Virus record (IMG/VR): IMGVR_UViG_3300023174_000071
Coordinates: 64,326-128,325 of that record
Length of the DNA stretch: 64,000 nt
Source: a virus
Reading direction: 5' to 3' (one strand)
Shown: positions 4,075-64,000 of the stretch, piece after piece
How positions within the stretch are numbered: the first letter of the stretch is position 1
Layout: every line of letters starts with the position of its first letter
Made by a program: the position numbers and the translations under genes
Notes under the pieces: model-generated
The model's database searches: none
Told to the model about the DNA's origin: nothing
The model's input: the letters and a program-made list of their open reading frames with translations, nothing else

Positions 4075-4411
4075 GGAAGAATTAGAAACAAAAGTTTTAT
4101 CATTTGCCGATGCTTTTAATAAGAAAAGAGAGCATCAGCAGAATTTGGAATCTATGGAAAAGATTCTAAATCAAGAGCAAGATGAAGCTTCAAAAAATCC
4201 GTCTGAAGATATTTTGGATGAAAAAGTTCAAGCAGAGTTTAAACGAAGAACTTTGCAGATGCAGATTTTTAGAGAAATATCCAATCAGATGCTCTATATG
4301 GAAGCGGAAATTTCTGCGCTTAGAGCCCGTCAATATTTACATATGTCATTTTTAATCGGGATGTTTGTTGTTATTTTATTTTTAGTTGGATATATAGCAG
4401 CAGTAAGCTAA
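4067..4411 (+). CDS. Coiled-coil protein with C-terminal transmembrane helix
   Basis: Hydrophobic tail FLIGMFVVILFLVGYIAAV. Confidence 0.62.
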   Translation: MDREELETKVLSFADAFNKKREHQQNLESMEKILNQEQDEASKNPSEDILDEKVQAEFKRRTLQMQIFREISNQMLYMEAEISALRARQYLHMSFLIGMFVVILFLVGYIAAVS

Positions 4412-4414
4412 AGG

Positions 4415-4648
4415 ATGTTAATGAAGACTCTGGCTATAGATATTTTTCTTATCATTGCTTTTGTTTTTGCTATGCTGTTTCTTGTTCGGCATCAGAAGAT
4501 TGAACAACAAATATCTTGCCAGCACAAATGCGGTGTTAATCCTTTTTATATGAAAATGGTACAAAATAAATATCTTTTGTGCGTGTGTGAAAATAAAACA
4601 CCAGGAAATTACAAAATTTTTTATTCAAATGAGAATGAGGAGAAGTAA
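4415..4648 (+). CDS. Small membrane protein
   Basis: N-terminal TM helix; CxxxC and CxC motifs. Confidence 0.55.
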   Translation: MLMKTLAIDIFLIIAFVFAMLFLVRHQKIEQQISCQHKCGVNPFYMKMVQNKYLLCVCENKTPGNYKIFYSNENEEK

Positions 4649-29945: not shown

Positions 29946-30260
29946 ATGAATTTAATTTTCCTAATAGTATTCTCAATTGGTGCGACAAACCTAGTTGTTA
30001 ACGCATCAATATTAGAGGGGTTACGAAATGCAGTTTCTTCAAAGCATCAATTGTTAGAAAAGCTGCTATCCTGTATGATGTGTGCGGGTTTCTGGGTTGG
30101 TATGTTATCGTCTTTATTTTTCGGAATCAATCCGATTTTTGCGGCGGTAATTTCCAGCCTTTTTTCACATCTATTTGGCGTACTAGTAGGGTGCGTCGAA
30201 TCTGTAACTTATGCAAACTATCAAATTCCACAAGCTGTAGAGGTTGAATATGAAGAATAA
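29946..30260 (+). CDS. Small membrane protein (DUF1360-like)
   Basis: TM helices with LLSCMMCAGFW motif. Confidence 0.7.
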   Translation: MNLIFLIVFSIGATNLVVNASILEGLRNAVSSKHQLLEKLLSCMMCAGFWVGMLSSLFFGINPIFAAVISSLFSHLFGVLVGCVESVTYANYQIPQAVEVEYEE

Positions 30261-32092: not shown

Positions 32093-32417
32093 CATTAAAA
32101 TTCCAGACCGCCACGCTAGAGTTAGCGAGCAAGAGGCAAAGAGGCGTCTAGAACTCTGTATGCAAGATTTTAAAAATCTGCTATCCGACAAAACTCATCC
32201 GGATAATCAAACGGCAGCAATGAAGAAAAATACATCTTCTATTGTTAACCGACTTCTAGTTGCCGCAGATGAAATGGATTCTATTAAGCCAGCAGAAGGT
32301 ACGTTCGCTCTTATTGTTCTTAATATGATGTCTCTTCTAAAGCTACGAGATGAAAATATCAAATTGGAAGTAGAGATTAAGGAATTGCGAAAGGAACAAA
32401 AGAAGAAATTACAATGA
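32085..32417 (+). CDS. Hypothetical coiled-coil protein
   Basis: GGAGG RBS before ATG 32085. Confidence 0.65.
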   Translation: MDDIKIPDRHARVSEQEAKRRLELCMQDFKNLLSDKTHPDNQTAAMKKNTSSIVNRLLVAADEMDSIKPAEGTFALIVLNMMSLLKLRDENIKLEVEIKELRKEQKKKLQ

Positions 32418-32953
32418 TTGAGGGCGGCATTATCCAGCATATCTCTCAGAGTATCAAGATTACAGATCTTGCTGAAGAATTTGGAATCTCTCTCGAAGAA
32501 ACTTCTGGTAAATTTGATTATAGGTGCCGCTGTCCGTTTCATTCTAATGGAAGAGAAAACACCCCTTCTCTTTACATTAGTTCGGAACAGAACAGCTTCT
32601 TTTGCTTTGGATGCTCAAAAGGTTCAAATCCAATTGATTTCTATATCCTCATTAATCAAGTTACATTTACAGAAGCATTGCAAGAATTAAGACAGCGACT
32701 AAAAGATCCCCAAAATTTAGTTCAAGCGCCAAAGAAAGAAAGTAACTTTGGCTTGCTGTTAAGCTTATCCAGTTTCTTTCGAGAAAATCTAATCCAACAC
32801 CCGCAGCAACGACAATGGATATTGTCAATGATGAAGCGGACGGATATGTATATTGAACAAATTCCTCCTGAAGATATAGCTGCAACAAAGAAATTGATTT
32901 CAAAAATTAAAAAATCCTTTAAGGATAAGGTTGGAGAATCATGCGAATTGTAA
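32414..32953 (+). CDS. Stand-alone primase CHC2 zinc-binding domain protein
   Basis: CPFH...ENTPSL...FFCFGC..G.N.IDF motif; no TOPRIM domain. Confidence 0.85.
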   Translation: MIEGGIIQHISQSIKITDLAEEFGISLEETSGKFDYRCRCPFHSNGRENTPSLYISSEQNSFFCFGCSKGSNPIDFYILINQVTFTEALQELRQRLKDPQNLVQAPKKESNFGLLLSLSSFFRENLIQHPQQRQWILSMMKRTDMYIEQIPPEDIAATKKLISKIKKSFKDKVGESCEL

Positions 32954-51947: not shown

Positions 51948-53495
51948 ATGCAAGACATTAAAAAAATTCTAAAACAAGCTCAATCTGCTTTGGAAGCACT
52001 TCAAAGCGGAAAGAATTACCCTTCCGTCTACGTCGTTTCTCGTCTTAACTCTGCGCTTGATAAGCATCCTCACAACCAACTTATTGGTAATATGAGAGAT
52101 GTTTTTACAAAGATTGCTTCAAAAAATGAATTTATCTCTCAAGCTCAGATTGCGGAAACTTACAATAATTTCTACGGTTTAGCTGGAAATTCTGTAGACT
52201 TTCGTGCGGAACTTGGCGATCTTCTTCCTTCAAGCCTAAATGTTGAAAATACAGTTAAGGTTGACGCCTCTAATCTTCGCACAAACGAAGGTACTTCCGT
52301 TGAGCCACTTTTCGGCGCTTCTGATGCTTCCCGTGCTTTTGAAAAGCTTTTTCCTGTAAAAGAAATTGCGGCATCAAAATTCTCTGATGGAATATTCAAG
52401 AAGGCGGAGAAGTTTGCTCAGGCTCAACTAGAATCTATTGGTTGCAAGCCTGATGCGATTAGCATTATCGAAGCGAATGAACATTTCGCTCTATGTCTAG
52501 CTTCCTATGGAACGCCAGATATGGTTCAGATTGGCGTTAAGGTTCCTGTTCAGATTTCTGAAAATGTTGTAAAGTTTCCAGAACACCTCATCCACGGCGA
52601 CGAACTACTTCCTCTAACCAAGGAAAATATCTACGTTCAGATTGCTGACGAGATGAATGTTCGTAAGGCTAACCTTAAGAATAAATTCGCTCTAGGCCGC
52701 AGCGAAACCGTTGTAACGATTGATCCGGTTGTTGTTCCAGCTAGCTTACAGCAGTTTACGGATATCGAAAATGAATTAGTTGCAGCCGGAGCTCATTTTA
52801 CACCAACTGATATTCGCTATGCTTCCAATATTGTTTCTACGGAGCTTATGGCTTGCGGTGTAAAGAGTCCTCAGCTAAAGGTTGCATCATCTACAAAGAA
52901 TGTTCTAACATTCTCTGCTAGCATTCCAACTGCCTCCGGACGAAAGGATGTAACTGTTCCTGTTGAATTCCATAACGGAAAGCCAACTCTTCCAAGCAAA
53001 TTCGTATACGCTTCTGATGCTTATGATTTCGATACGGCTTCCGTTTCTCGTTTTCTAAATGAAAACCTAAATACAGAAACGGCATCATTCACACGCGACC
53101 ACGATAATATGGAAAATATGTCTTTCCATGAACTATCTGATCTTGTAACCGCTGGCGCTCTTAAGAATGATTATAAGCTTTCTGAAGACGCTCTTGATGC
53201 GATTGGTTCACGCTTCCCTGACCAATTTAAGCTTGCTCTAGATAGCTTCTCCAAACTTCTAAAGAATGCTTCTGCGACCTCTAGTCGTGAAAAGCTTATC
53301 AAAGAAGCTATTAAACGTGGCGAACTAATCTCCGTCCCAACCTCTATTGAACCTTACAGTCCAAAGTTTGCGCTACCAGTCAGCAAGCTAGATTTCGATG
53401 AAAGTGGTCGCCTAATTCCATCTCATCGCAAGAAAGCATCTGAAGTTGAAGCTGCAATCATTGCGACAAATGCTTCTCGCATCATCATGAACTGA
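51948..53495 (+). CDS. Putative virion structural protein with internal duplication
   Basis: Two similar segments (L...G.K....I...V.VPV.......P..); high-expression codon bias; several KxA motifs. Confidence 0.68.
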   Translation: MQDIKKILKQAQSALEALQSGKNYPSVYVVSRLNSALDKHPHNQLIGNMRDVFTKIASKNEFISQAQIAETYNNFYGLAGNSVDFRAELGDLLPSSLNVENTVKVDASNLRTNEGTSVEPLFGASDASRAFEKLFPVKEIAASKFSDGIFKKAEKFAQAQLESIGCKPDAISIIEANEHFALCLASYGTPDMVQIGVKVPVQISENVVKFPEHLIHGDELLPLTKENIYVQIADEMNVRKANLKNKFALGRSETVVTIDPVVVPASLQQFTDIENELVAAGAHFTPTDIRYASNIVSTELMACGVKSPQLKVASSTKNVLTFSASIPTASGRKDVTVPVEFHNGKPTLPSKFVYASDAYDFDTASVSRFLNENLNTETASFTRDHDNMENMSFHELSDLVTAGALKNDYKLSEDALDAIGSRFPDQFKLALDSFSKLLKNASATSSREKLIKEAIKRGELISVPTSIEPYSPKFALPVSKLDFDESGRLIPSHRKKASEVEAAIIATNASRIIMN

Positions 53496-53506
53496 GGTTT
53501 TTTAAA

Positions 53507-53971
53507 ATGTCAAAACTTACATCTATTCTAAAAACTGCTTCTAAAATGGAAGATCGTTCTCTCGCTAGAAAGATTCGAGTCGCTGCAATTGAAAGTTTTG
53601 GCGTAGTAAAGACCGCTCAAACTGCATCTGGAGTTTTATCTTATGATAACTCCAGAGCGACTGTTGATTATCCTACTCGTGAAGAAGTCCTTCGCATGAG
53701 AGGCGGAAAGCCCGAAGATCGTTCAGAACTTTACCCAACAAAGAAAGAAGAAAAAGTTGACGTTGAACTACCTTACGTTCAACCATCTCTTTCAACTCGT
53801 TATGTTCCAGGTAAACCCGGCCTTCAAGCGGCGAGAGTTCTAGACACAGAAGGTGCATACCAAGACCCTTATACAAAGAAAGTATTCAATTGGTATGAAG
53901 GATTTAAGGCGGAAAACGGTGAGGAGTTCGCTCCCGGATCGGTTGCGAATCAATCACAACTTCATTACTAA
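53507..53971 (+). CDS. Putative virion protein
   Basis: GAGG RBS; LKTAS and VKTAQ motifs. Confidence 0.62.
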   Translation: MSKLTSILKTASKMEDRSLARKIRVAAIESFGVVKTAQTASGVLSYDNSRATVDYPTREEVLRMRGGKPEDRSELYPTKKEEKVDVELPYVQPSLSTRYVPGKPGLQAARVLDTEGAYQDPYTKKVFNWYEGFKAENGEEFAPGSVANQSQLHY

Positions 53972-53999
53972 GAAGCAACGAAAAATGGTAAAATAAAAT

Positions 54000-54028
54000 A
54001 GGCTCCTCCCGGAGCCTTTATTTTTTTT
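54000..54028 (+). terminator. Intrinsic terminator
   Basis: AGGCTCC-loop-GGAGCCT-TTATTTTTTT. Confidence 0.72.
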
Positions 54029-54036
54029 GGTGAAAC

Positions 54037-54753
54037 ATGGATAAAGATAAGCCTGATAATAGCAAGATTTTGCGGCATCCCGATAAAGAAGAAATTGTAA
54101 AAAAACTGATTAACGGTGAATCCGTAAAGCAAATTGAAGCTTGGTTAAAAAAGAAATATCCAAGAACAAAAAGGCTTCATGTTTCATATATGACTCTTCA
54201 GAAGTTTCGCTCTCAGAATTTAAATATTAAGGGCGAGCTTTTAGAAGAAGTAAAGAAAGCAAAATTAGAATTAGAGCAAGTTTCTGTCGATACTCAGCTA
54301 AGAGATTTGACGACAAATTCTAATGCCTATCAGGATAAGATTAAAGAAATCGCTAGTAAAGAATTGGATGTTACAAAGAGATTGCTTGAGATGGATAAAA
54401 TCATTTCGTCTCGCATTGAATACTATTACAATATCCTTGCTGCTGGTGGCTCGATTAAGCATGATAAAATTTTCATTGAATATATTTCGATGCTTAAGTC
54501 TATTATGCAGGATTGGAAGAAGTATGTAGAAGGTTTCGCTGATCAAAAAATTGAACACAATGTAAACGTTCAGGTTGTAAATACGCAGGTTTCTATTCTA
54601 AAAGAGGTTGTTTTTGAAACTCTTCAAGAAATGTCTCCTGAACTTGTTCCTGTTTTTATTGATCGAATCAATAGAAAATTGACCGGTCTGGATACATCTT
54701 CACCAGAATATAAATCCTATCAATTAGGGGTTATTGATGTCGAACCAGAATAA
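54037..54753 (+). CDS. HTH-like plus coiled-coil protein (possible small terminase subunit)
   Basis: HPDKEEI...L..GES...I..WL N-domain, then coiled coil; role inferred from architecture and position. Confidence 0.45.
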   Translation: MDKDKPDNSKILRHPDKEEIVKKLINGESVKQIEAWLKKKYPRTKRLHVSYMTLQKFRSQNLNIKGELLEEVKKAKLELEQVSVDTQLRDLTTNSNAYQDKIKEIASKELDVTKRLLEMDKIISSRIEYYYNILAAGGSIKHDKIFIEYISMLKSIMQDWKKYVEGFADQKIEHNVNVQVVNTQVSILKEVVFETLQEMSPELVPVFIDRINRKLTGLDTSSPEYKSYQLGVIDVEPE

Positions 54754-55006
54754 AGAACAAAAAATGGGGAAGCTTACACTTGAAGATTTAAGTGGTCTTA
54801 GTTTATTCGATCAATGGCTTAGAAGCAATTTGGCCATCTACAAGGATTCTGAGGTTGGAACCATATCATTTGATGAGTTGTTAATATTTCTAAATTATAT
54901 TGAAGAAAAGGCGTCTGATTTTAATAATAAGTTAGATCGTAAAAAATGGAAAAAATCTGTTTCAAAATTAAAGACGCACATTCAACATCAAATGGACGGA
55001 TTATGA
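54734..55006 (+). CDS. Hypothetical protein
   Basis: Packed ORF, ATGA-coupled to the next gene. Confidence 0.55.
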   Translation: MMSNQNKEQKMGKLTLEDLSGLSLFDQWLRSNLAIYKDSEVGTISFDELLIFLNYIEEKASDFNNKLDRKKWKKSVSKLKTHIQHQMDGL

Positions 55007-56586
55007 TTAACAATATTCAGATTGCAAAACAGGCCTTTGGTAAAAATCGTCTAAATTCTTTTTGCTATGAAAACGCTTTAGCGAAGGGTGCTTCCTTAAC
55101 TGCTGATGATGTTTCTGCTTTAATTCTTTTCTCAAAAGAAGATGTTAAAACAGAAGATGAGCTAAAGCTAGCTGCCAGTATTTATAATATTTTATCATTT
55201 TCTCATGGCAGCGTTTCTGAAGAGATATTCAAACAGGCATATGGTGACGCCTCCATCTCTGAAGTAAACACATCTGCAGATCTATATCAGATTGTTTTGG
55301 AAGCCTGCCAAAAGAAGGGTACCTTTAACAAGAAGGCTTACCCAAATGGATCTGGCGCTCTATCTCCCGAAATTGAATCTGAGTCGGATTTAGTTCGCTG
55401 GGGTAATATTGTAAAGCAAATCTATAACGCCTCTCTATCTGGTGAAATAGATGTGGATCAAGGCATTCGTATTGCTCAAGAAAAATTAAATAAAGCGAAT
55501 CCTCAATCTAAAGAGGGTGATCGTTTTATGCATTGGGTTAACTATTATAAAAATGGCGAACATTTAAAGTATAGCGCTGAAAAAGGAAAAAATATGTACA
55601 AAAAAGCAAATTACCAATTTAGCCCCAAAGGAAGTCAGCAGTACACCGGCACTCCAGACTTGCGACAATCTACGGGTAATGATATTTTAGATATATTCGC
55701 AGCGAATCCTGATGTTGGAATCTTTGAGTCTAAAGTTTTAGATGCAAAGCACGAAACCGATAAGAAAAATGATTATAAAGCTTGGAAATCAAAGCTTCAC
55801 ACCGCCATTCGAAGAATTGATAAATTAATTCGAAATAGCGATGGTTTAATCGAACCTGAGATTACAGAAAGACTATCTGAAATATTGCATTCTTTCGACC
55901 TTCAGGTTGGCAGAGCTAAACTTCATACTACAGCTTCTGATTTAACCTTCAAGACCGCTCAGCAGTTTAAGAAGCTTGGATTTGATGCTGGTTCAAATAT
56001 TTTAATTAAAGTTGCTCAGCAAACTCCTCCTGTAGAAGAACCTGTGGCTCCAGCTGAAATTATGCCAGAAACCGTTGAGGCTCCACAGGCGCCAGCGGCG
56101 GAAGGCCAACTTCAAGAGGCGGGAGTTCAAACAGAAGAGCCTGCCGGAGAAGAACAACCACAATCAAAACCGAATATGTATGGGAAAGAATTCTCTCTAG
56201 ATGATGCGGTTGAGAAGCTAGACGAAGTGTCAAACATGTTGGCCGATCGTGCAGTTATTCGTATGCTTTCCGAATTCGACATTATTCTCGATAGCATTGG
56301 TATTGCGTCAATGTTCCCAGAGTTGGCCGAAGCTCAAAGTAAATTAATTGATGGTTACTCCTACGCTCTTACTCGTGTAACAAAAATGATGGGTATGATT
56401 GGTAGCGGAAGAACTTTATCTGAACTTGCTCGTGAAAAGCAAGATTCGTTGGATGCGAAAGCTGAAGGCTTAGCTGAAAAAGAACTAGCGAGAGGTAAAG
56501 AATCATCTGAAAAAGAAGAAGAACCAAGTCCTCAGCAGAAAGAATTTGGTAATGCACCTGCAGCACCTCCCGCGCAAACTGTATAG
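55003..56586 (+). CDS. Putative virion/head protein with possible nested start
   Basis: ATGA overlap start; multiple KxA motifs; Pro/Glu linker; internal AAAGGA-N6-ATG at 55594. Confidence 0.68.
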   Translation: MINNIQIAKQAFGKNRLNSFCYENALAKGASLTADDVSALILFSKEDVKTEDELKLAASIYNILSFSHGSVSEEIFKQAYGDASISEVNTSADLYQIVLEACQKKGTFNKKAYPNGSGALSPEIESESDLVRWGNIVKQIYNASLSGEIDVDQGIRIAQEKLNKANPQSKEGDRFMHWVNYYKNGEHLKYSAEKGKNMYKKANYQFSPKGSQQYTGTPDLRQSTGNDILDIFAANPDVGIFESKVLDAKHETDKKNDYKAWKSKLHTAIRRIDKLIRNSDGLIEPEITERLSEILHSFDLQVGRAKLHTTASDLTFKTAQQFKKLGFDAGSNILIKVAQQTPPVEEPVAPAEIMPETVEAPQAPAAEGQLQEAGVQTEEPAGEEQPQSKPNMYGKEFSLDDAVEKLDEVSNMLADRAVIRMLSEFDIILDSIGIASMFPELAEAQSKLIDGYSYALTRVTKMMGMIGSGRTLSELAREKQDSLDAKAEGLAEKELARGKESSEKEEEPSPQQKEFGNAPAAPPAQTV

Positions 56587-56611
56587 CCAACTTAAGGCGT
56601 AAAGTGATAAT

Positions 56612-58963
56612 ATGAAAATCAAAGAAGCGTTAAGAAAACTTTATGATATCTCCAAAGAATACGCCATCGACACTCCATATGTTGTTGGCGGTATTCCAAG
56701 AGACATTTATATTGGCGAACAAATAAAAACAAAAGATATTGATATTACGACCAATACTGCTGACGTTTTAATGTTGGCTATTTTGTTTTCTCAAAAAACG
56801 GGATTAAAATTAACGCTTCTTGAAGATGGCCATGCTATTGTTTTTTCTGATGATTTTAAATTAGATTTTTCGACGCACACCATTTACCCTGAAGTGGTTG
56901 AGCATTTGCAGCCTGTCGGTTCGGATTTAGATGTAAAAATGTATGAAGTATTTAGTCGAGACTTTACGATAAATACTTTACACATGCATCCTTTAACCCA
57001 AGATATTCTTGATCCGACGAACAAAGGTATAGCCGATATTAAGGCGAAGATTATTAGAACCCCTGTGCCCGCTGAGATTACTTTATCAGCGGATCCTAGA
57101 CGAGCCTTTCGTGCAATAAAATTCGCCGTTCAATATGGTTTCGATATCGATTCAGATATTTCATCTTTTTGTAATGATAATTTTGAATTATTTAAGAATA
57201 GCGATATTGATTCATTTATCCTTGACACTATTGATGCTTCCATGAAGATTGATGAAGATCGAACTGTCGCTTTGCTTAAGGAGATGGGATTATTCAAAGT
57301 TGTACCTTTAGCTGGAAAGCTTAAAGATTATTTAATTAAGAATCACTCCGTATTGGATTACTTTGAAGAAAAGCGTTCTGTTGCTTCTTCAAAAATTGGA
57401 TTAAAAAAGATATCCGAAGTTGTTGCTAAAAATTGGGAAGAATACGAAGCTCAAGGTCCGGATTTCAAAGAACTTGCAGATTTTTGGAAATTAAATTGGA
57501 GACAGATTCCTGGCATTTTAAGCTCTGATTATCAAAGCTGGAAGTCTTGGTATAAAAATCTTTTTAAGCAAGAGTGGTCTGAACAGCATAAAAATCCAAA
57601 AGAAGTATTGGATATGCTTCAACAATATATCTCTTCTAAATCTGGCCCATTACAATCTGTTATTGTGAAAGAATTAAAGGTCGGACCAGAAGTAGATCGA
57701 AAGCTTTTTGATGTTTCTTCTCATAGAGAAGTGAAAGGCATTCCGATTTCTGGAATCAAATGGTTCTCAAAAGATGATCGTGGAGTAGATTTATCTCCTC
57801 AATCTTTGAACTTCTTAGAGAAGCTTTCTGATAAGATTAATTTTCCTGTAGTTATAACATCAGGAACCCGAACGCTAAAAGAACAAGCTAAGGCTATGTG
57901 GAAAAATTTAAGAAGAGATGGATTCGCCCGATTGGTTGAATTATATCCGGACGCCTTAGTTAAAGATATGCAGTTTGCCAAGAGCGAAAAAGATATCGAA
58001 AATATATTGCTTGAGAAGCAAAATGAAATGCCAATCTCCGCCCATCTTTACGGTGAAGGTTTAGACTTCAGCATAAGAAATCTTTCTTCAGAAGAAAAAG
58101 TCGCCTTAATGAATGCGGCAAAAGAAGTGGGCTCTAGAGTTATTGATGAGCACAATCATATTCACGTTCAATTTGGAAAATTTGCTTCTGTTGAAAATGG
58201 AATTGTGAAAAAAGCAATTCATAGCTTTGTTGCCAAAAATTGGGAAGAGTATGAAGCCCAAGGCGAAAATTATAAAGACTTAGCTAACTATTGGAAAAAT
58301 AATTGGAATCAGATTCCGGGTGCAAAAAGTGATTCTTTTATTGATTGGAAAGATTGGTATAAAAATCAATTCCATGAGGCTTGGTCCGGCAAGCATAAAT
58401 CACCAGAGGAAGTTCTTCAGTTATTTAAAGTTCCGCAAAGTTTAGAGATGAAGCCTGAATCGACTCGAATGGAACCTGCATCTCAAGTGGTTAAAGAAAA
58501 AGTTGTTGAGTCAATTCACAAGCAGCTTTCACCAAAAGAGAACGCAGATATCATTATGAAGATATTTACTTCAAATGGTTTCAGCCAAAATATTGCAAAA
58601 GCGGCGATAGTAAATGCTCAAGCTGAGTCTGGTTTAAATAACCTAGCCATTGGTGACAGTGGACACTCTTTAGGTTTATTTCAATTAAATGATCGTGGCG
58701 CCGGTAGAAATATTGCCCTACCGATGGTTAACGGTGAACCTGATTTAAATGATCCAAGATTTGATCCAGAAAAAAATACATTAGAGATCATTAAAGAAAT
58801 CAACTCTCCTTATGGAAATAGATTAAAATTTGCTGACAAAAATAGGGAGCCTATTTCGGTTTTAAGTCAAATCTTCAGTGAGGATATTGAGCGACCAGCA
58901 GATAAGCGCCGTCAAGCAAGAGAGCGAAGAAATCTTTCTAGGAAACTTTTCCCCGAAGAATAA
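56612..58963 (+). CDS. CCA-adding/poly(A) polymerase-like NTase fused to M15-like peptidase and lysozyme-like domains
   Basis: VVGGIPRD, DIDI, RDFTIN, DP.R..RAIKF; ITSGTR...SAH......D...HIH; AESG...GD...S.GLFQ; two Trp-rich repeats. Confidence 0.8.
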   Translation: MKIKEALRKLYDISKEYAIDTPYVVGGIPRDIYIGEQIKTKDIDITTNTADVLMLAILFSQKTGLKLTLLEDGHAIVFSDDFKLDFSTHTIYPEVVEHLQPVGSDLDVKMYEVFSRDFTINTLHMHPLTQDILDPTNKGIADIKAKIIRTPVPAEITLSADPRRAFRAIKFAVQYGFDIDSDISSFCNDNFELFKNSDIDSFILDTIDASMKIDEDRTVALLKEMGLFKVVPLAGKLKDYLIKNHSVLDYFEEKRSVASSKIGLKKISEVVAKNWEEYEAQGPDFKELADFWKLNWRQIPGILSSDYQSWKSWYKNLFKQEWSEQHKNPKEVLDMLQQYISSKSGPLQSVIVKELKVGPEVDRKLFDVSSHREVKGIPISGIKWFSKDDRGVDLSPQSLNFLEKLSDKINFPVVITSGTRTLKEQAKAMWKNLRRDGFARLVELYPDALVKDMQFAKSEKDIENILLEKQNEMPISAHLYGEGLDFSIRNLSSEEKVALMNAAKEVGSRVIDEHNHIHVQFGKFASVENGIVKKAIHSFVAKNWEEYEAQGENYKDLANYWKNNWNQIPGAKSDSFIDWKDWYKNQFHEAWSGKHKSPEEVLQLFKVPQSLEMKPESTRMEPASQVVKEKVVESIHKQLSPKENADIIMKIFTSNGFSQNIAKAAIVNAQAESGLNNLAIGDSGHSLGLFQLNDRGAGRNIALPMVNGEPDLNDPRFDPEKNTLEIIKEINSPYGNRLKFADKNREPISVLSQIFSEDIERPADKRRQARERRNLSRKLFPEE
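57416..58422 (+). repeat. Two copies of a ~65-aa Trp-rich repeat (about 57416-57620 and 58229-58422)
   Basis: VAKNWEEYEAQG...K.LA..WK.NW.QIPG...WK.WYKN.F...WS..HK.P.EVL occurs twice. Confidence 0.85.
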
Positions 58964-59009
58964 TATTTTCTCTGCTAAATTAGTATGATAAATTGATAGG
59001 AGTTTTATT

Positions 59010-59408
59010 TTGCTTAGAGGCGATAAAAAACCATGCCCTTTTGGTCTTAAAATTCCAAGTGATTGTGAGACTATTGGTACAAAGGTTTTGACAATGCAAC
59101 CAAATGAGCCTTCATCAAATGAAATGAAGGAGCAAGCGAGGGTAAATCAATTACCTGGTTGCAATTTTTGCATTTACGCAAAAACAATATTTGCAGAGAA
59201 AAAAGCTGTAGATTGTGCGTTTAATGATGTTCCTCAAGATGTTACGGTTGGAACTGGAAATTTTTATCCTCATATTTTCATTGGAACGCAAACTCAGCCT
59301 ACTTCTATGAATTATTCCTCATCTTTCCATAGTGATAGTGCTTATCACGACAACAATTTAGACACTCAGATGTTTCCCGGTGCAATATCTTTTTATGGGA
59401 ATCACTAA
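59010..59408 (+). CDS. Cys-rich hypothetical protein
   Basis: AGGAG RBS, TTG start; CPFGL.IP..C motif; TGCTAAAT upstream. Confidence 0.65.
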   Translation: MLRGDKKPCPFGLKIPSDCETIGTKVLTMQPNEPSSNEMKEQARVNQLPGCNFCIYAKTIFAEKKAVDCAFNDVPQDVTVGTGNFYPHIFIGTQTQPTSMNYSSSFHSDSAYHDNNLDTQMFPGAISFYGNH

Positions 59409-59429
59409 TTTTGGCTTTAGGAGTCTTTT

Positions 59430-60455
59430 ATGAAAATCGCTAAAACTGCTCAACATACACTTGTACCTATGACGTCTTCTCATGTAGAACCTGTTGTAAT
59501 TCAATTTTCAGAAGAAGACGAGTCTCATGAGCATCCACATGCAGAATTTCATGAAATTGAAGTTCTTGATTCTCCTGTAGAATTTGAAGAAGAAATGGAT
59601 GAAGATTCTGTGGAATTTTCAGAAGAAGATCTAGAACAAACTCCAGCTGAAGTTGCGGAAGATATTGCCGAAACTGCTGACGAAATTGTTTCTGAGTATG
59701 GCGAAAGCGTTGTTGAGTTTGCGGAACAATTCTTTGATGAAGATGAGACTCTAGAAGATCTAGAGATGGATGTAAAAAGCTCCATTCCGGGTCTAGAAGG
59801 CGAACTCGAAGAAGAAGAGGAAGAAGAAAAGAAGGAAACCACTTGGGAAGATGACCGAGATGTTTCTAAATTCATGGATTATATCCACGCCTCTTATCCT
59901 ACAAAGATCCCACGCCATGATGGTAAGTCCATGATTGGTTGTGAGCGAGCCATGTTATTCTTAAATAAGATCAACAAGGAAATCTCTGAAGCTATCCGTA
60001 TGGATCATGACGGCCAGCTTGATGCAGAAGAACTAGAAGAAACCCGCATCAAGATTATGAAAGATCTTATTGTCCTAAAGAAGCACCTTAATGCTCTAAA
60101 AGAAAAAGTTCTTGAAGTTCGCGCATCAAACGAAGATGGCCTTGTTAAAGAAGCAGAATTAAACAAAACCGCCACAACTTCAATAATTCAAGTTGTTGCA
60201 ACGCCATTTGAGCGAGCCATCGTTGGCATCCTAATCAACGCTGTGGTTTCTGCTGGAAATTCCTTTGAAGATGTATTTGATTTCCTAAAGGAAAAATACA
60301 AGCTTAATGAACGTGAAGAGCTTGCGATTTTCCAACTTGTCATGGATAGCGGATATCACATTTACAAAGACCGTGGCGCTATTTCCGAAAAGGAATCTGC
60401 TGAAGATAAAAACGGAAAAGATGGCGTAGACTTCGTTCGCAACTATCTCGCCTAA
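59430..60455 (+). CDS. Acidic putative head/scaffold-like protein
   Basis: AGGAG RBS; AKTAQ and NKTAT motifs; very acidic N-terminal half. Confidence 0.65.
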   Translation: MKIAKTAQHTLVPMTSSHVEPVVIQFSEEDESHEHPHAEFHEIEVLDSPVEFEEEMDEDSVEFSEEDLEQTPAEVAEDIAETADEIVSEYGESVVEFAEQFFDEDETLEDLEMDVKSSIPGLEGELEEEEEEEKKETTWEDDRDVSKFMDYIHASYPTKIPRHDGKSMIGCERAMLFLNKINKEISEAIRMDHDGQLDAEELEETRIKIMKDLIVLKKHLNALKEKVLEVRASNEDGLVKEAELNKTATTSIIQVVATPFERAIVGILINAVVSAGNSFEDVFDFLKEKYKLNEREELAIFQLVMDSGYHIYKDRGAISEKESAEDKNGKDGVDFVRNYLA

Positions 60456-60464
60456 GGAGGCCTT

Positions 60465-61067
60465 ATGTCTTTTCGACGTATCGATCAAAAAGAATCCTAT
60501 AATGTTACGGCGGATTGGCTAAAGGATTTTGCAAATAAAATGTCTAAGGAAGGTAGCTTCCTAGACAATATCGGTGGAATCATTGAGCAAACGAAGAATA
60601 AATACGGCTCAATAGAAGAAAAAATGGTTGATATTCGCCAGCGTGTCGGTTTTGACACGTTGGCTTCCATTCGCGATTCAGAAGAAGAAAAGGTAGCAAC
60701 TGCATCCGGTCCTTGTTGTGACAAATGCGTAGATGGTCATTCTTGCAAAATCTCTACTGCTGGCAATCTAGATGTAGAGCAGATGAAAGCCATCCTAAGC
60801 TATGCAAAACAAATGATTCAAAAGAATCCGGATCCAAACCTATCTTCTGTTGCCGTAATTGAAGAATGCCGCTCTCGACCAGATTTAAATTGGAATAACT
60901 TAAAGATAAACGAGCAAAAATTCAAGCAGGCTGTTCAAACCGAAATTGAAAAAACAAGACCAGTTAACGTTTCAACGCCAGAATATGTAAGCCCCATTAC
61001 TGATTCAAGTTCAGAGCATCAGGATACTACAGCGGAATACTTCAGTCACAGCGCCCCTAAACTATAA
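60465..61067 (+). CDS. Hypothetical head-block protein
   Basis: AAGGAGG RBS; EKVATAS and CCDKC motifs. Confidence 0.65.
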   Translation: MSFRRIDQKESYNVTADWLKDFANKMSKEGSFLDNIGGIIEQTKNKYGSIEEKMVDIRQRVGFDTLASIRDSEEEKVATASGPCCDKCVDGHSCKISTAGNLDVEQMKAILSYAKQMIQKNPDPNLSSVAVIEECRSRPDLNWNNLKINEQKFKQAVQTEIEKTRPVNVSTPEYVSPITDSSSEHQDTTAEYFSHSAPKL

Positions 61068-61092
61068 GTCTTGTTGATTAAAACAATGAACC

Positions 61093-62874
61093 ATGACGAA
61101 AAGCAAAAAACAACAAGAGAGTGAATTATTTGATCAAATAAAATCCGGATTCTTAGATTATGATCCGGCTTATTATATTCAAAATAATTTAACATTAGAT
61201 GGAACTGAATTTCGAATCATCGGAAATGGTTGGAAATTTATGGCTGATATCTATCGTTATATCGGCCTTCAAGCGCCTCAGAAAAATGGCAAACCGGTTG
61301 TTATAAAAAAAGGTCGTCAGGTTGGTGCAACCATGATGGCTGGCGCTTTGGATTTATATTTTACGAATAGTGCTCTATTCTCCAAGCCAGCTATTCGTGT
61401 TGCTCATCTTTTCCCTGCTCTTGCTCACGTTAAAAAGTTTTCGCAAGATAAACTAGAGGGAATGATTCGAACGGCAAAAGGCGATGTTATCAATAAAAAT
61501 AAACTAAAATCGCAAAATGCTGTTGATAATTTAACCATGAAGCAATTCGAAAACGGAACTTTATGGATTGACGCTCTTGGCGCTGACGGCGACAGACTTC
61601 GTGGTATGACGATTGACGTGGCGCTTATTGACGAATTTCAAGATGCTTACCCATCTGCTGTTAATAACGTTTTGAAAACATTAACTGCCGCTAAGTATGG
61701 AAAGGCTGGTTCTGGTATTCAGGTGTTTTTCGGAACGCCAAAAGAAAGAGGTTCCTTATTTAATATTTATTGGGAACAATCTGATCAGCGCTATTATCAT
61801 TTGGGTTGCGTTGGTTGCGGCGAAACTTATCCATTTTATCTTCCAGAAGATGAGAGTTGGAAGAAAATTTGGTTGTATGGAAATGTTATTAAATGTCCTC
61901 TTTGTGGCGTCGAACAATCAAAAGTCGAAGCTATAGAAAAGGGCAAATGGGTTGCAACAAAAAACTTTGAAGATTGCAAGTTCGTTGGTTTTCATATCAA
62001 TCAGCTTTATGTTCCAAATCTTACAAAAGAATTTATTATGGAACAGATGCCGGAGAATAATCCGGCGCAAACAGAAAGAGTTTGGAATAACGAAGTTATT
62101 GGTGAATTTTATTCTGGCGCAGGGTTACCTCTAACCAAACAAGATATTTACGATCATTGTCGAGATGTTGATAGACATTTTGCAAAAAGAATTTCCGAAA
62201 GAGATAAGCCCGTATTTCTTGGCGTAGATTGGGGCGGCAAAGCTGAAGGTGATGATATCGAGCGGGGTCAATCCTTTTCTTGCGTTGTCATCCTCTCTGC
62301 TGACCATAACGGAACTCTTTATGTTGAACATGCTCATAAGTTACGAGAGCAAAGCTTTAATTATAAAAAAGAAACCATTCATGAGATGTATCGTCGCTTC
62401 GGCGTAAAGCGTGGTGTCTCTGACTGGTTCTTCGGTCAAGATGTTGTTCATGATTTGCAAATGTCTTATGGAGAAAAATTTCTGGGCGCTCAAGGTAGCG
62501 GAAATTTATTTAAGCCTCTTAAGTTTCGAGAGGATGAATTAATTGTCGCTTACAATAAGGATTTACTTATTGAAGAACTTTTTGATTTATTTAGAAAGGG
62601 AAAGATCCGATTTCCTTGGAAAAGCTATGAACATATCGAGTGGTTGATTGAACACTGCACTTCTATGGAGATGACGGTTAAAACAACAAACGGTCAACCT
62701 GTAAAGCATTATATAAAAGGTTCTACGCCAAACGACGGATTAATGGCGCTAATGTATGCATATATGGCATATAAGTTTGAATTAACAAAAGGTTTTTCGG
62801 TAAAACCTGGATTAGACAAACCGACAACTATGCCTAGACCAACTCTGGCTTACGCACCCAGATTGAGGAGTTAA
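61093..62874 (+). CDS. terL: Terminase large subunit (GpA-like)
   Basis: KKGRQVGAT Walker A, LIDEFQD Walker B, FGTP, SDQR.Y..C..C/CPLC, GFHINQL, LGVDWG and PNDG.MA motifs. Confidence 0.9.
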   Translation: MTKSKKQQESELFDQIKSGFLDYDPAYYIQNNLTLDGTEFRIIGNGWKFMADIYRYIGLQAPQKNGKPVVIKKGRQVGATMMAGALDLYFTNSALFSKPAIRVAHLFPALAHVKKFSQDKLEGMIRTAKGDVINKNKLKSQNAVDNLTMKQFENGTLWIDALGADGDRLRGMTIDVALIDEFQDAYPSAVNNVLKTLTAAKYGKAGSGIQVFFGTPKERGSLFNIYWEQSDQRYYHLGCVGCGETYPFYLPEDESWKKIWLYGNVIKCPLCGVEQSKVEAIEKGKWVATKNFEDCKFVGFHINQLYVPNLTKEFIMEQMPENNPAQTERVWNNEVIGEFYSGAGLPLTKQDIYDHCRDVDRHFAKRISERDKPVFLGVDWGGKAEGDDIERGQSFSCVVILSADHNGTLYVEHAHKLREQSFNYKKETIHEMYRRFGVKRGVSDWFFGQDVVHDLQMSYGEKFLGAQGSGNLFKPLKFREDELIVAYNKDLLIEELFDLFRKGKIRFPWKSYEHIEWLIEHCTSMEMTVKTTNGQPVKHYIKGSTPNDGLMALMYAYMAYKFELTKGFSVKPGLDKPTTMPRPTLAYAPRLRS

Positions 62875-62875
62875 A

Positions 62876-64000
62876 ATGTCAAATAGAAGAAGTACGTTGC
62901 CTCAAAATTCGCCTCAAGCTTTATCTAAGCATACGGTAAATTCGCTTTCAGAAGTTCGACGTGCTCAAATTTTGGATGCGGTAAATAAAGATTTGGATTC
63001 TGAAACTGCTTCAAAATATCCTGCTGCAGTTGTTCATAGTGCTGATTTTTCAAAAGGTTTAGTTAAGAAAGGTATGGTTGGTCCATTCGCTGCTCCAACT
63101 ACAACATCAAAAGTTGATCAACTTGCTCCAGATGTTTATTCTCCTTTATTTCAGCTTGCAAACTTAAACTTACCTCGTGATCGAATCACGATGAACGCTT
63201 GGAATCGAGTGTTCTATGATACGCATCCGTTGGTAAGAAATGCGGTTAACTTGCATGCATCATTCCCTATTAGCAAGATTAACATTACATGCAAGAGCAA
63301 AAAGGTTCAGCAGTTCTTCTTAGAAATGTCAGAAAAGCTGGATCTTTATTCTGTTGTATATGGTGCGGCGCTTGAATTCTGGAAGCATGGAGAATGTTTC
63401 CCTTATGCTGAACTAGATCGTCAAACGGGCACTTGGAAAAGAATTACGGTTCTAAATCCTGACTATGTCCACGTTAAAAAGACAATCATCGGTGATCAAT
63501 CTATTGTCTCTTTACGTCCGGATGCGAACTTAATTAAGATTGTATCTTCAAACAATCCTGCAGATATTGCGATGAAAAAGATGCTACCTCAGCATATTAT
63601 TGATTGCGTTAGAAAAGGGCAGAATATTCCTTTAGATAATCTAAATATTTCACATCTAAAGTTATTAAGCTCGCCATATGACGTAAGGGGTACTTCTATC
63701 TTAGTATCTGTTTACAAAGATCTTATGCTTTATGATAAGCTACGCGAATCAAAATTTGCTCAAGCAGACGGCATGATTAACCCAATGACGCTTGTGAAGT
63801 TGGGTGGAGCCGGAGAGTACCGACCAACGCAAGCTGATATTGATGCGTTTCGAGGCGTTCTTGAGGAAGCTCAATACGATAAAGATTTTAAATTAGTTAC
63901 GCATGATGGCGTCACCATTGAGCGAGTTGGATTCTCCGGCGCAACGATGGAGATTGCAGGCGATGTAGAAAAAATTATGGAAAATATCTACATCGGTCTA
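62876..64000 (+). CDS. Portal protein (truncated at window end)
   Basis: GAGGAG RBS; open to window end; FY..HPLVRNAV..H, GECF, LNPDYV and RGTSIL motifs; directly follows terL. Confidence 0.8.
   Translation, partial: MSNRRSTLPQNSPQALSKHTVNSLSEVRRAQILDAVNKDLDSETASKYPAAVVHSADFSKGLVKKGMVGPFAAPTTTSKVDQLAPDVYSPLFQLANLNLPRDRITMNAWNRVFYDTHPLVRNAVNLHASFPISKINITCKSKKVQQFFLEMSEKLDLYSVVYGAALEFWKHGECFPYAELDRQTGTWKRITVLNPDYVHVKKTIIGDQSIVSLRPDANLIKIVSSNNPADIAMKKMLPQHIIDCVRKGQNIPLDNLNISHLKLLSSPYDVRGTSILVSVYKDLMLYDKLRESKFAQADGMINPMTLVKLGGAGEYRPTQADIDAFRGVLEEAQYDKDFKLVTHDGVTIERVGFSGATMEIAGDVEKIMENIYIGL

What the first reader, a model, noticed from the sequence alone, without database searches (positions are those of the whole stretch)
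56612..58963. CCA-adding-type nucleotidyltransferase fused to two cell-wall hydrolases in the head gene block
Seen architecture: class II NTase head/neck (GG..RD, DxD, RDFTIN; about 56612-57365), linker ASSKIGLKKIS, Trp-rich repeat A, M15-like Zn peptidase (SxH-x6-D...HxH; about 57830-58175), linker ASVENGIVKKA, repeat B, then a lysozyme-like domain (AESG...GLFQ; about 58510-58960). The base-selecting EDxxR motif reads ADPRR and RRD reads SRD, hinting at changed nucleotide specificity. A cytoplasmic RNA enzyme and periplasmic hydrolases in one chain make most sense if it is packaged and cut at the linkers. Inference: a virion-delivered kit in which repeat-tagged hydrolases breach peptidoglycan while an injected NTase repairs tRNA 3' ends or tails RNAs before phage genes are expressed. 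This is the best candidate for an undescribed system in the window.
Basis: partly seen in the sequence, partly recalled or inferred. Interest (0 to 1): 0.85.

Follow-up and report, generated by a model that had tools for sequence, protein, structure and literature searches.

The report
Phage RNA-tailing enzyme fused to wall-cutters
A giant freshwater phage makes one protein that joins a stripped-down CCA-type RNA end-adding enzyme to two different cell-wall-cutting enzymes, each preceded by a new tryptophan-rich module; the chain is real and recurs in relatives, but whether it travels in the virus particle is still open.

Summary
ORF 56612-58963 (783 aa) reads: class II nucleotidyltransferase head+neck, Trp-rich module, LAS/M15 zinc peptidase, second Trp-rich module, lysozyme-like domain. 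It is no artefact: a 96% twin exists, the same protein lies on two contigs, and contigs from four independent freshwater studies bridge both junctions.

The context changes the reading. The NTase is a core gene of an uncultured jumbo-myophage clade, about 250-260 aa with no tRNA-binding body or tail. It always sits in the operon running into terminase and portal.
- Of 27 related loci, it stands alone in 17.
- In 5 an overlapping Trp-module+M15 gene follows it.
- In 1 it is fused to that gene.
- In 2 it is fused to a different neighbour.

The "linkers" are therefore former gene termini, not inserted cleavage sites. SRD is family-wide, and the base-templating Asp and Arg are kept, so changed specificity is not supported.

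Best reading (about 0.4): a small "polyvalent" late protein carried in the virion. Close rival (about 0.33): an uncleaved cytoplasmic protein whose hydrolases act at lysis.

The Trp module is rare (43 hits in 1.84 billion representatives) and precedes four hydrolase types. The scan has not noted this on other DNA.

The parts
56612..58963 (+). whole ORF, 783 aa (P0001), stop codon included
   Evidence: The same protein lies on 2 contigs, and independent contigs bridge the domain junctions.
56612..57367 (+). class II (CCA/poly(A)-type) nucleotidyltransferase, head + neck only (res 1-252); no body or tail domains
   Evidence: Pfam PolyA_pol 23-149. PDB sequence matches cover positions up to about 240 of about 400-residue CCA enzymes. 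The AF2 model has pLDDT >90, and the Foldseek top hits are CCA/A-adding enzymes at E 2e-11. Catalytic and templating residues are invariant in 32 relatives. Stand-alone homologues end at the equivalent of res ~252.
57368..57424 (+). junction 1 (res 253-271): former C-terminus of the NTase gene plus the N-terminal 'KKIS' segment of the Trp module; predicted disordered
   Evidence: pLDDT <50 at 259-270. Split genes in L003, L006, L007, L009 and L028 overlap by a few bases here.
57425..57646 (+). Trp-rich module A (res 272-345), helical
   Evidence: alignment A2 has invariant W, Y, Q, G, W, W, W, Y, W, H and P. Helices have pLDDT 86-97 in the second model. No Pfam, PHROG or Atlas match.
57734..58195 (+). 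LAS-fold (M15-like) zinc peptidase (res 375-528): SG.R 417-420, H478, D485, E513, H516, H518
58196..58231 (+). junction 2 (res 529-540), predicted disordered
   Evidence: pLDDT <50 at 530-540. P0003 ends at the equivalent ...GKFA.
58232..58429 (+). Trp-rich module B (res 541-606)
   Evidence: 38 of 66 residues identical to module A; alignment
58538..58933 (+). lysozyme-like / lytic-transglycosylase-like domain (res 643-774) with AQAESG and GLFQLN
   Evidence: Pfam Phage_lysozyme2 at 2.1e-9, above cut-off. PHROG tape-measure lysozyme parts at 8.5e-5. The fold model has low confidence.
54000..54017 (.). bidirectional terminator-like hairpin marking the start of the transcription unit that holds the gene
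   Evidence: 7-bp stem with 5 GC pairs and T runs on both strands. Other terminator-like sites in 53400-61200 are no more than chance (7 found, 5.4 expected).
61093..64000 (+). TerL (61093-62874) and portal (62876-, cut by the contig end), downstream in the same gene string
   Evidence: PHROG terminase large subunit at 6e-64 and portal at 4e-38

Best explanation
The gene is a genuine, inherited in-frame fusion of three neighbouring late-operon cassettes of an uncultured freshwater jumbo myophage:
- (i) the clade's core minimal class II nucleotidyltransferase;
- (ii) a Trp-module + LAS/M15 zinc peptidase;
- (iii) a Trp-module + lysozyme-like glycosidase.

Shown: the domains, their intact active-site residues, the disordered junctions, the split and fused states in relatives, and the place in the TerL/portal operon.

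Inferred:
- The NTase adds C/A-type nucleotides to RNA (most likely tRNA) 3' ends. Lacking the tRNA-measuring body and tail, it does so with looser substrate choice.
- The two hydrolases cut the peptide and glycan parts of peptidoglycan.
- The Trp module is their address, most likely wall-binding.

Most likely setting (about 0.4): the chain is a small 'polyvalent' virion protein. It is made late with the packaging genes, carried in the particle and released at infection. The hydrolases then open the wall while the NTase reaches the cytoplasm with the DNA. Cleavage at the junctions is possible but not indicated.
For: Architecture and active sites.

Real fusion.

Constant N-terminal NTase with a variable C-terminal load in relatives:
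- +W+M15: P0003-7, L002, and P0052/P0060/P0066 as NT+W.
- +W+M15+W+Lys: P0001 and P0002.
- +W+unknown domain+HAD_SAK RNA-repair phosphatase: P0064.
- + the next small gene: L004 and L005.

Linkage to the NTase: all 9 of 9 W+M15 loci found in IMG/VR lie directly behind, or fused to, the NTase.

Same gene string as TerL and portal, with no terminator from 54017 on. In the complete relative G002 the major head protein and the sheath follow.

A separate endolysin candidate exists. The complete relatives G001 and G002 carry a T4-type Phage_lysozyme gene far away. In G002 it has a weak LysM match (E 0.006, below cut-off). So W+M15 is not the only wall enzyme.

The lysozyme-like domain belongs to Pfam 'phage tail lysozyme', and its best PHROG matches are tape-measure proteins.

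No membrane protein of holin or spanin type lies beside the gene.

The published theme of polyvalent phage proteins fits. They combine lysozyme, DD-peptidase and Pol-beta NTase domains, lie among late genes and are predicted to enter with the DNA (PMC5512222, passages read).

CCA role: 2 of the 4 tRNA genes on the contig (Arg-TCT, Asn-GTT) lack an encoded CCA.
Against: - No virion proteome exists. The nearest cultured phage TerL is at most 26% identical, and the hydrolase part has no BLAST match in 50,697 phage records.
- No capsid- or tail-anchoring domain was recognised in the chain.
- The W+hydrolase cassette is absent from 17 of 27 related loci, so it is dispensable for entry.
- Split-form W+M15 proteins are small soluble proteins of 244-330 aa with an N-terminal binding-type module and a C-terminal catalytic domain. 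That is the layout of modular endolysins (recalled). The best PHROG match for the M15 part is 'endolysin', and several best fold matches are endolysins: Ply500, LysB4, the T5 peptidase and LysECD7.
- An uncut chain cannot place the NTase in the cytoplasm and the hydrolases in the periplasm at once. No processing protease was found, and the junctions are not conserved sites.
- The zincin reading of the HELAH protein at 19086-22310 got no support from Pfam, PHROG or PDB sequence searches.
- NCBIfam CCA equivalog scores are far below cut-off, 60 against 290 bits, so the substrate is not settled.
Confidence: 0.4

Rival explanations
1. Cytoplasmic tethered enzymes with no packaging and no cleavage. 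The fusion is a near-neutral read-through of adjacent late genes. The NTase matures or repairs tRNA 3' ends in the infected cell. The Trp-module hydrolases are auxiliary modular endolysins that wait in the cytoplasm and reach the wall through holin lesions at lysis.
For: - Fused, split and stand-alone states interleave on the NTase tree. One well-supported clade holds L002 (fused), L004 (fused to another gene) and L008 (alone).
- The linkers are former gene termini.
- The layout is an N-terminal module plus a C-terminal catalytic domain in small soluble proteins.
- M15 fold and PHROG matches include endolysins.
- The cassette is optional: absent in 17 of 27 loci.
- The chain has no signal peptide or membrane segment; the maximum 19-mer hydropathy is 1.47.
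- In lambdoid phages the lysis genes lie just upstream of terminase (recalled).
Against: - Complete relatives have a separate T4-type lysozyme gene, in G002 with a weak LysM match, as the more ordinary endolysin candidate.
- No holin- or spanin-like gene lies next to the cassette.
- The lysozyme-like domain is of the 'tail lysozyme' / tape-measure type.
- An RNA enzyme fixed inside the packaging operon of every relative is unusual for a purely cytoplasmic role.
Confidence: 0.33
2. The Trp module docks on the NTase rather than on the wall. The NTase would be a hub that carries W-tagged enzymes, or the module would stand in for the missing RNA-binding body domain.
For: - W+M15 genes are found only directly behind the NTase (9 of 9 loci).
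- Foldseek alignments of the full model to CCA enzymes run on for 380-540 columns, that is, past the neck.
- Atlas feature hits for the module include C-terminal domains of class II NTases, but at scores of 0.76-0.78, which is noise level.
Against: - The module also precedes the lysozyme-like domain far from the NTase.
- It occurs twice in P0046 (SLT and GDSL domains, no NTase in that chain), and in P0070 and in non-enzyme proteins.
- Most NTases of the clade have no module nearby.
Confidence: 0.1
3. The NTase part is not a tRNA enzyme. It could be a poly(A)/other-tailing enzyme, or act on another 3'-OH substrate, for example in an anti-defence role. The HAD fusion would mark a broader end-healing kit.
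For: - There are no body or tail domains.
- NCBIfam hits to CCA, A-adding and PcnB models all lie far under cut-off.
- SRD stands in place of RRD in all 32 members.
- P0064 adds a HAD_SAK phosphatase of RNA-repair type.
Against: - The Asp and Arg that template C and A are kept.
- The best sequence and fold matches are CCA/A-adding enzymes.
- The phage has tRNA genes without an encoded CCA.
Confidence: 0.12
4. Assembly or gene-calling artefact, or a decayed pseudogene fusion.
For: none found
Against: - Independent assemblies and contigs from four studies cover both junctions.
- Active-site residues of all domains are conserved across 36-54% identical relatives.
Confidence: 0.01

Closest known systems
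Polyvalent proteins of phages and conjugative elements (Iyer, Burroughs, Anand, de Souza, Aravind 2017; PMC5512222, abstract and passages read)
   Same: One chain combines domains of unrelated activity, and it is encoded among late genes beside virion genes. Lysozyme, DD-peptidase and Pol-beta-superfamily NTase domains are all listed there. Those proteins are predicted to enter the cell with the DNA.
   Different: - This protein is small: 3 catalytic domains, 783 aa.
- It has no zincin processing peptidase in the chain.
- Its NTase is a class II CCA/poly(A)-type RNA enzyme. 'CCA' occurs 0 times in that paper's main text, and the passage read groups its NTases with protein-modifying domains.
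- The Trp module was not looked for there.
- Supplements were closed, so its domain tables were not checked.
Class II CCA-adding / A-adding enzymes and PcnB poly(A) polymerase; phage 'tRNA nucleotidyltransferase' (PHROG 2244; jumbo-phage CCA enzymes noted in PMC7824862, passages read)
   Same: Head and neck domains, motif A GG..RD/DxD, a third carboxylate, the RDFTIN motif, and Asp/Arg in (E)DxxR. The fold matches at Foldseek E 2e-11.
   Different: The body and tail domains that hold the tRNA acceptor and T arms are missing. The first Arg of RRD is Ser in the whole family. Scores lie far under all NCBIfam equivalog cut-offs. The enzyme is fused to wall hydrolases.
Bifunctional virion-associated peptidoglycan hydrolases such as phi29 gp13 (lysozyme + metallopeptidase)
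   Same: A glycosidase of the Phage_lysozyme2 family and a zinc peptidase sit in one chain of a phage morphogenesis region. The phi29 gp13 lysozyme domain (3csr) is the only wall enzyme among the weak PDB sequence hits, at E 0.94, which is not significant.
   Different: The peptidase here is LAS/M15. That gp13 carries an M23 peptidase is recalled, not tested. The domain order is reversed, Trp modules are added, and no tail-structure domain was found. Virion location is unknown.
Modular endolysins with an N-terminal binding domain and a C-terminal catalytic domain (KZ144/EL188 type of jumbo phages; recalled, not fetched)
   Same: A binding-type module sits in front of each catalytic domain. The split-form proteins are small and soluble, with no signal peptide.
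   Different: The module is unrelated to PG_binding_1 or LysM by Pfam. There are two catalytic domains and an RNA enzyme in the chain. No lysis cassette lies around it. Relatives carry another lysozyme gene.
M15/LAS peptidases: ChiX, VanXY/VanY, Ply500, LysB4, T5 L-alanoyl-D-glutamate peptidase
   Different: About 15-21% identity. A helical insertion of about 50-90 residues lies between SG.R and the first His, including the WKN/NW..GG motif. The Pfam score is just under cut-off.

Membership tests
Class II nucleotidyltransferase (PolyA_pol; CCA-adding / A-adding / PcnB) | Head domain with motif A: GG..RD and the DxD carboxylates | tested here: met
   G26 G27 R30 D31, D42-I-D44. GG, R30, D42 and D44 are 32/32 in relatives. 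Pfam PolyA_pol scores 54.8 bits against a cut-off of 23.
Class II nucleotidyltransferase (PolyA_pol; CCA-adding / A-adding / PcnB) | Neck domain with base-reading Asp and Arg of (E)DxxR | tested here: met
   D161 is 31/32 and R164 is 32/32. The first position is variable: D17, N10, A3, S1, V1. Role of Asp/Arg taken from PMC3925840 passages.
Class II nucleotidyltransferase (PolyA_pol; CCA-adding / A-adding / PcnB) | Motif B RRD (motif name recalled) | tested here: not met
   It reads SRD in 32 of 32 family members. Solved CCA enzymes aligned read RRD.
CCA-adding enzyme proper (tRNA nucleotidyltransferase) | [quoted passage not shown] | tested here: not met
   Matches stop at about position 240 of 396-425-position models and chains. 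Stand-alone relatives end at about 250-261 aa.
CCA-adding enzyme proper (tRNA nucleotidyltransferase) | Score over the curated equivalog cut-off (NCBIfam) | tested here: not met
   Best is NF009814 at 60.3 bits against a cut-off of 290. PcnB and A-adding models are also far under.
CCA-adding enzyme proper (tRNA nucleotidyltransferase) | Adds C, C, A to tRNA 3' ends | not testable with these tools
   Needs an enzyme assay.
LAS / Peptidase M15 | Zinc ligands H-x6-D and H of HxH, plus a catalytic residue (ExxH) | tested here: met
   H478, D485, E513, H516 and H518. They are invariant in A1 (7 rows) and at least 90% conserved in A5 (24 rows).
LAS / Peptidase M15 | Pfam gathering score | tested here: not met
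   Peptidase_M15_3 scores 22.6 bits against 23.2, with only 390-423 matched.
LAS / Peptidase M15 | LAS fold | tested here: met
Phage_lysozyme2 / lysozyme-like (SLT-type) | Pfam gathering score and the catalytic Glu in the E-S motif | tested here: met
   38.1 bits against 28.2. AQAE672SG and GLFQLN are present.
Phage_lysozyme2 / lysozyme-like (SLT-type) | Lysozyme-like fold | tested here: inconclusive
   pLDDT is mostly below 50 for 607-765, with only two sequences covering the region.
Polyvalent proteins (PMC5512222) | Two or more domains of disparate activity in one chain, in a phage late-gene setting | tested here: met
Polyvalent proteins (PMC5512222) | Delivered into the cell with the DNA | not testable with these tools
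   Needs virion proteomics or an ejection assay.
Polyvalent proteins (PMC5512222) | Zincin-like peptidase for processing (common, not obligatory) | tested here: not met
   There is none in this chain. The HELAH protein at 19086-22310 has no family or PDB support.
Canonical endolysin of a lysis cassette | Neighbouring holin or spanin genes | tested here: not met
   No ORF with a hydrophobic 19-mer lies beside the gene. The nearest strongly hydrophobic small ORF is 29946-30260.
Canonical endolysin of a lysis cassette | The phage's sole muralytic enzyme | tested here: not met
   Relatives G001 and G002 have a separate Phage_lysozyme gene. The window's own genome is only 38% present.

The most novel reading that the evidence does not exclude
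Across this whole clade of freshwater jumbo phages, the minimal NTase is a capsid-carried, injected RNA 3'-end repair enzyme. It doubles as the constant N-terminal carrier of a polymorphic C-terminal load. That load includes Trp-module-tagged wall hydrolases of at least four catalytic types and an RNA-repair HAD phosphatase. The phage would then arrive with both a wall-breaching kit and a tRNA-end repair kit, ready before any phage gene is expressed. The Trp module would be a new peptidoglycan-binding fold.
Probability: 0.25. Interest if true: 0.8.

Novelty: new variant of a known kind. Interest (0 to 1): 0.55.

Why it matters
If the chain is carried in the virion, it would be the first case I know of a CCA-type RNA end-repair enzyme delivered with phage DNA. 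My searches found none in the held library. That would tie tRNA-end damage and repair to the first minutes of infection, and it can be tested with one recombinant protein and one proteome.

Three things stand whatever the location:
- A class II NTase reduced to head and neck, conserved with intact catalytic residues in more than 30 phages. This bears on how much of the enzyme is needed for C/A addition.
- A rare Trp-rich module that precedes M15, lysozyme-like, SLT and GDSL domains. It is a candidate new wall-binding domain, of possible use for engineered lysins.
- A clear natural series of alone, overlapping and fused gene states at one locus.

Tried and rejected
The contexts of P0003, P0004, P0007, P0046 and the non-enzyme Trp-module proteins could therefore not be read. 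I used the search for related loci instead.
- P0046 (W+SLT+W+GDSL) had no relative in viral contigs or metagenome contigs, so its neighbourhood is unknown.
- The scan with P0064 in metagenome contigs found only stand-alone relatives of its HAD domain (39 loci). None had the fused form.
- My guess that the middle domain of P0064 is YkuD-like got no Pfam hit even at E up to 1. I dropped it.
- Linker motif as a general capsid-targeting signal or cleavage site:
  - The KK[FM]ISK-type motif occurs only in the ORF at 19086-22310 (3 copies) and once in 32414-32953 of this contig.
  - Only 2 of 577 ORFs of the complete relative G002 start with M..KKIS.
  - A looser [KRSQ][IVLFM]A[SNG] pattern is too common to mean anything.
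  - I reject it as a general code.
- Trp module against the repeats of the 19086-22310 protein: hhalign probability 1.7%, so they are unrelated.
- Trp module fold:
  - The ESM Atlas gave nothing above 0.78, and TM was at most 0.50.
  - In the W+M15 model the fold lists were filled by the M15 part.
I do not claim a new fold.
- Complex prediction of the split-form NTase (A7) against W+M15 (A8) gave no verdict: scores 0.55, 0.01 and 0.05 against a mark of 0.32. It counts neither for nor against binding.
- Prohead protease families S78, S77 and ClpP:
  - None was found in G002.
  - One ClpP-like gene lies far from the head genes in G001.
  - The S77 control rang nowhere, so that search says nothing.
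- No RNA holder was listed among the sequencing runs, so there is no statement on expression.
- The sigma-70 promoter scan gave 23 sites against 19.9 expected and is uninformative.
- No cultured relative:
  - Phage-collection tblastn of the whole protein found only NTase parts in 17 records, at no more than 39% identity.
  - The hydrolase part found nothing.
- The N-terminal helix motif of P0075 and P0077 was searched. It gave 41 unnamed proteins and no annotation.
- Supplements of the papers were closed. The domain tables of PMC5512222 might list a similar architecture.
This is the corrected resend.


Full report
**What is there.**

The window is the last 64 kb of a 128-kb IMG/VR virus contig. 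The contig is judged 38% complete, which implies a genome of about 340 kb. Positions 56612..58963 on the + strand hold one open frame of 783 codons.

Family searches give these matches:
- Pfam: a PolyA_pol head domain at residues 23-149 (E 1.5e-14). A Phage_lysozyme2 domain at 643-774 (E 2.1e-9, above cut-off). A Peptidase_M15_3 match at 390-423 that misses the cut-off by 0.6 bit.
- PHROG: residues 23-293 are called a tRNA nucleotidyltransferase (1.6e-19).

The two Trp-rich stretches share 38 of 66 residues and 126 of 198 bases. That points to an old duplication kept by selection.

**The fusion is real.**

- A 96% identical 783-aa protein comes from another assembly.
- The identical protein is on record from two contigs in three sources.
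- Logan contigs from four separate freshwater or aquatic studies cover both domain junctions without any joint. One 1460-base contig runs from the NTase through module A and the peptidase into module B. Its only indels are a compensating +1/-1 pair four bases apart.
- The runs that hold the stretch are lake, freshwater and aquatic metagenomes.

**The three enzyme parts.**

*NTase.* Sequence matches to solved structures are all class II CCA-adding, A-adding or poly(A) enzymes, and they end near position 240 of chains of about 400 residues.
- The AlphaFold model has pLDDT above 90 for residues 1-258. Its best Foldseek matches are the same enzymes, at E 2e-11 to 1e-9.
[quoted passage not shown] The neck holds the base-reading Asp and Arg, and the body and tail hold the tRNA's acceptor and T arms (PMC3925840, passages).
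- This protein therefore has the catalytic half only.
- In 32 family members GG, R30, D42, D44, D85, S115, R116, D117, N121, D134, D142, R164 and R167 are invariant, and D161 is kept in 31.
- The 'SRD' is thus a trait of the whole family. The 'A' of ADPRR sits at a position that varies freely (D17, N10, A3, S1, V1).
- Two solved eukaryotic CCA enzymes read DDPLR there.
- I see no basis for inferring altered base choice from these two changes.
- NCBIfam places the domain near CCA, A-adding and PcnB models but far under every curated cut-off. The substrate class is inferred, not assigned.

*M15 peptidase.* An alignment of 24 Trp-module proteins shows near-invariant S-G-x-R, Q, H, D, E, H and H. 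In P0001 these are S417, G418, R420, Q425, H478, D485, E513, H516 and H518.
- The second model has pLDDT 80-95 for this domain.
- The Foldseek top hit is the ChiX L-Ala-D-Glu endopeptidase at E 0.014.
- BFVD gives viral M15 peptidases.

*Lysozyme-like domain.* This passes Pfam's cut-off and has the E-S and GLFQ motifs. Its fold model is poor because only two sequences cover it.

**The Trp module.**

A profile of seven copies, searched against 1.84 billion representatives, found only 43 proteins at E up to 1e-3, 27 of them at 1e-10 or better.
- Most are 244-330 aa with the module at the N-terminus followed by the M15 domain.
- Others are NTase fusions: P0002, P0003, P0052, P0060, P0064, P0066 and the fragment P0065.
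- P0046 has two modules, one before an SLT domain and one before a GDSL hydrolase.
- P0070 has the module before a Phage_lysozyme2 domain.
- A tail of weaker hits are proteins with no recognised enzyme domain.

The module is helical and confidently folded. It has no Pfam, PHROG or Atlas relative. It is unrelated to the repeats of the large protein at 19086-22310.

Because it stands before four different kinds of wall-active domain, a wall-binding or addressing role is the simplest reading. That role is inferred. I could not fold the module alone, so I make no claim about a new fold.

**The family context, which changes the reading.**

Twenty-nine IMG/VR loci encode a relative of the NTase. Two of them (L029, L030) are ordinary full-length CCA enzymes of other huge phages.

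The other 27 belong to one clade with rigid gene order: recombinase, primase core, six conserved unknown genes, NTase, a variable slot, three conserved unknown genes, TerL, portal.

Among those 27 loci:
- In 17 the NTase is a stand-alone ORF of 250-269 aa (L021 cut at its start). It ends exactly where residue ~252 of P0001 lies.
- In 5 (L003, L006, L007, L009, L028) it is followed by a separate Trp-module+M15 gene whose start overlaps the NTase stop by a few bases in another frame.
- In 1 (L002) the two are fused.
- In 2 (L004, L005) the NTase is fused instead to the next small conserved gene.
- 2 (L024, L027) are cut by contig ends.

A second scan with the Trp-module+M15 alignment found 9 loci, 5 of them with distinct sequences. 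All 9 lie directly behind, or fused to, the NTase.

On a tree of 32 NTase domains the states interleave. One well-supported clade holds a fused, an otherwise-fused and a stand-alone form. I left out L005, L011 and L028 as duplicates, L021, L024 and L027 as truncated, and L029 and L030 as distant.

So the 'linkers' are the former ends of adjacent genes. The 'KKIS' stretch is the conserved N-terminal segment of the module, seen as M-I-R-K-I-S-F-x-A-x-x-W in split genes. The junctions themselves are poorly conserved among fused forms. Both junctions are predicted disordered.

One variant, P0064 (also P0087, on a 358-kb contig), carries NTase, module, an unassigned domain and a HAD phosphatase of the 'Swiss-army-knife RNA repair' type. 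This supports an RNA-end repair role for the NTase.

Four tRNA genes lie on the contig, and two of them lack an encoded CCA.

**Where does it act?**

A strong bidirectional terminator lies at 54000-54017, and nothing beyond chance follows up to 61200. Intergenic gaps are 2-46 bases. The gene is therefore most likely co-transcribed with TerL and portal.

In the complete relative G002 (335 kb, terminal repeats) the major head protein follows the portal by nine genes, and a tail sheath lies further on. The clade is therefore myoviral, and this is its head and packaging region.

G001 and G002 each carry a separate T4-type lysozyme gene far away. In G002 that ORF also has a weak LysM match (E 0.006, 16.9 bits against a cut-off of 20.9), which makes it look like a modular endolysin. 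No membrane protein lies next to the fusion gene.

Three points favour a virion-borne protein of the kind described as 'polyvalent proteins' (PMC5512222, abstract and passages):
- the 'tail lysozyme' family of the C-terminal domain;
- the pairing of a peptidase with a glycosidase;
- the constant-N-terminus, variable-C-terminus pattern.

Against this:
- The cassette is optional in the clade.
- The split-form proteins look like small modular endolysins.
- Several best matches of the M15 part are endolysins.
- There is no recognisable virion-anchoring domain, no protease and no conserved cleavage site.
- An uncut chain cannot serve both compartments at entry.
- A cytoplasmic NTase tethered to waiting endolysin-type domains needs no special explanation.

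I put the virion reading at about 0.4 and the cytoplasm-then-lysis reading at about 0.33. The remainder goes to other roles of the module or the NTase.

**Comparison and novelty.**

Each domain is a member or near-member of a known superfamily. The combination was not found in 50,697 phage records, nor in my three literature searches:
- tRNA nucleotidyltransferase + phage + virion + peptidoglycan;
- nucleotidyltransferase + packaged/ejected/capsid/internal proteins + phage;
- CCA-adding / phage-encoded / body and tail.

A review of jumbo phages notes CCA-adding enzymes as RNA-repair genes, and the passages I read mention no such fusion (PMC7824862).

The closest concept is the polyvalent protein. 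Against that, this is a new variant, with a class II RNA NTase reduced to head and neck and a new Trp-rich module. The scan's earlier notes touch only this same stretch.

Noticed in passing
L002, L003, L004, L005, L015, L016, L020, L028 (TerL matches in two pieces about 1.1 kb apart); G002:87366-90239 and 90249-94109: In 8 relatives the TerL match is split by an insert of about 1.1 kb. In G002 TerL is one 957-aa ORF and the portal one 1286-aa ORF, which suggests in-frame inserts (inteins?). In the window TerL is 593 aa and uninterrupted. The portal match is also split in L002, L003 and L028.
   Followed up: no
window 19086-22310: A 1074-aa protein with an N-terminal HELAH motif and three junctions of the type A-[SG]-x-N/S-KK[FM]ISK.A, each followed by a module ending in a ~75-aa repeat. 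The junction resembles the N-terminal segment of the Trp module. It has no Pfam, PHROG or PDB sequence match. The G002 ortholog starts MKKISQ. It may be a second polyvalent-type protein.
   Followed up: partly
window 59010-59408 and homologues downstream of the NTase in most loci: A small conserved protein with a variable N-terminus (Cys-rich CPFGL...C in some, acidic in others) and a conserved C-terminus of the type SP.YP.I..G...DDN...G..SFYG. In L004 and L005 it is fused to the NTase. It has no family match.
   Followed up: partly
contig positions 49951-50310 (upstream of the window); P0075, P0077; G002:231300-232118: An N-terminal helical motif of the type KL.KIANRLD.LG..KEAD.LD...KVA heads a 119-aa ORF of this phage. 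It also heads Trp-module proteins P0075 and P0077 and 41 unnamed metagenomic proteins. The lysozyme ORF of G002 has a loosely similar N-terminus. The C-terminal tails after several M15 domains (K-I/V-A-N/S...) resemble its first turn.
   Followed up: partly
contig positions 1815-1905 and 21693-22085 (outside the window): Four tRNA genes (Ser-GGA, Arg-TCT, Thr-TGT, Asn-GTT). Arg and Asn lack an encoded CCA, while Ser and Thr have it.
   Followed up: yes
window 29946-30260; also 4067-4411 and 4415-4648: Small ORFs with strongly hydrophobic segments: 104 aa with 3-4 segments, 114 aa with a C-terminal one, and 77 aa with an N-terminal one. They are possible holin- or spanin-type genes, far from the hydrolase fusion.
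   Followed up: no
window 54000-54017: A perfect 7-bp GC-rich hairpin with T runs on both strands, between 53507-53971 and 54037-54753. It is a likely bidirectional terminator and operon boundary.
   Followed up: no
window 51948-53495 and orthologues in 15 loci: A conserved 515-aa protein of unknown function with a strongly conserved N-terminal stretch GNMRDV..K.AS...F[IF][ST]Q and a conserved Q[IV]K[VF][AS]S segment. It has no family match.
   Followed up: no
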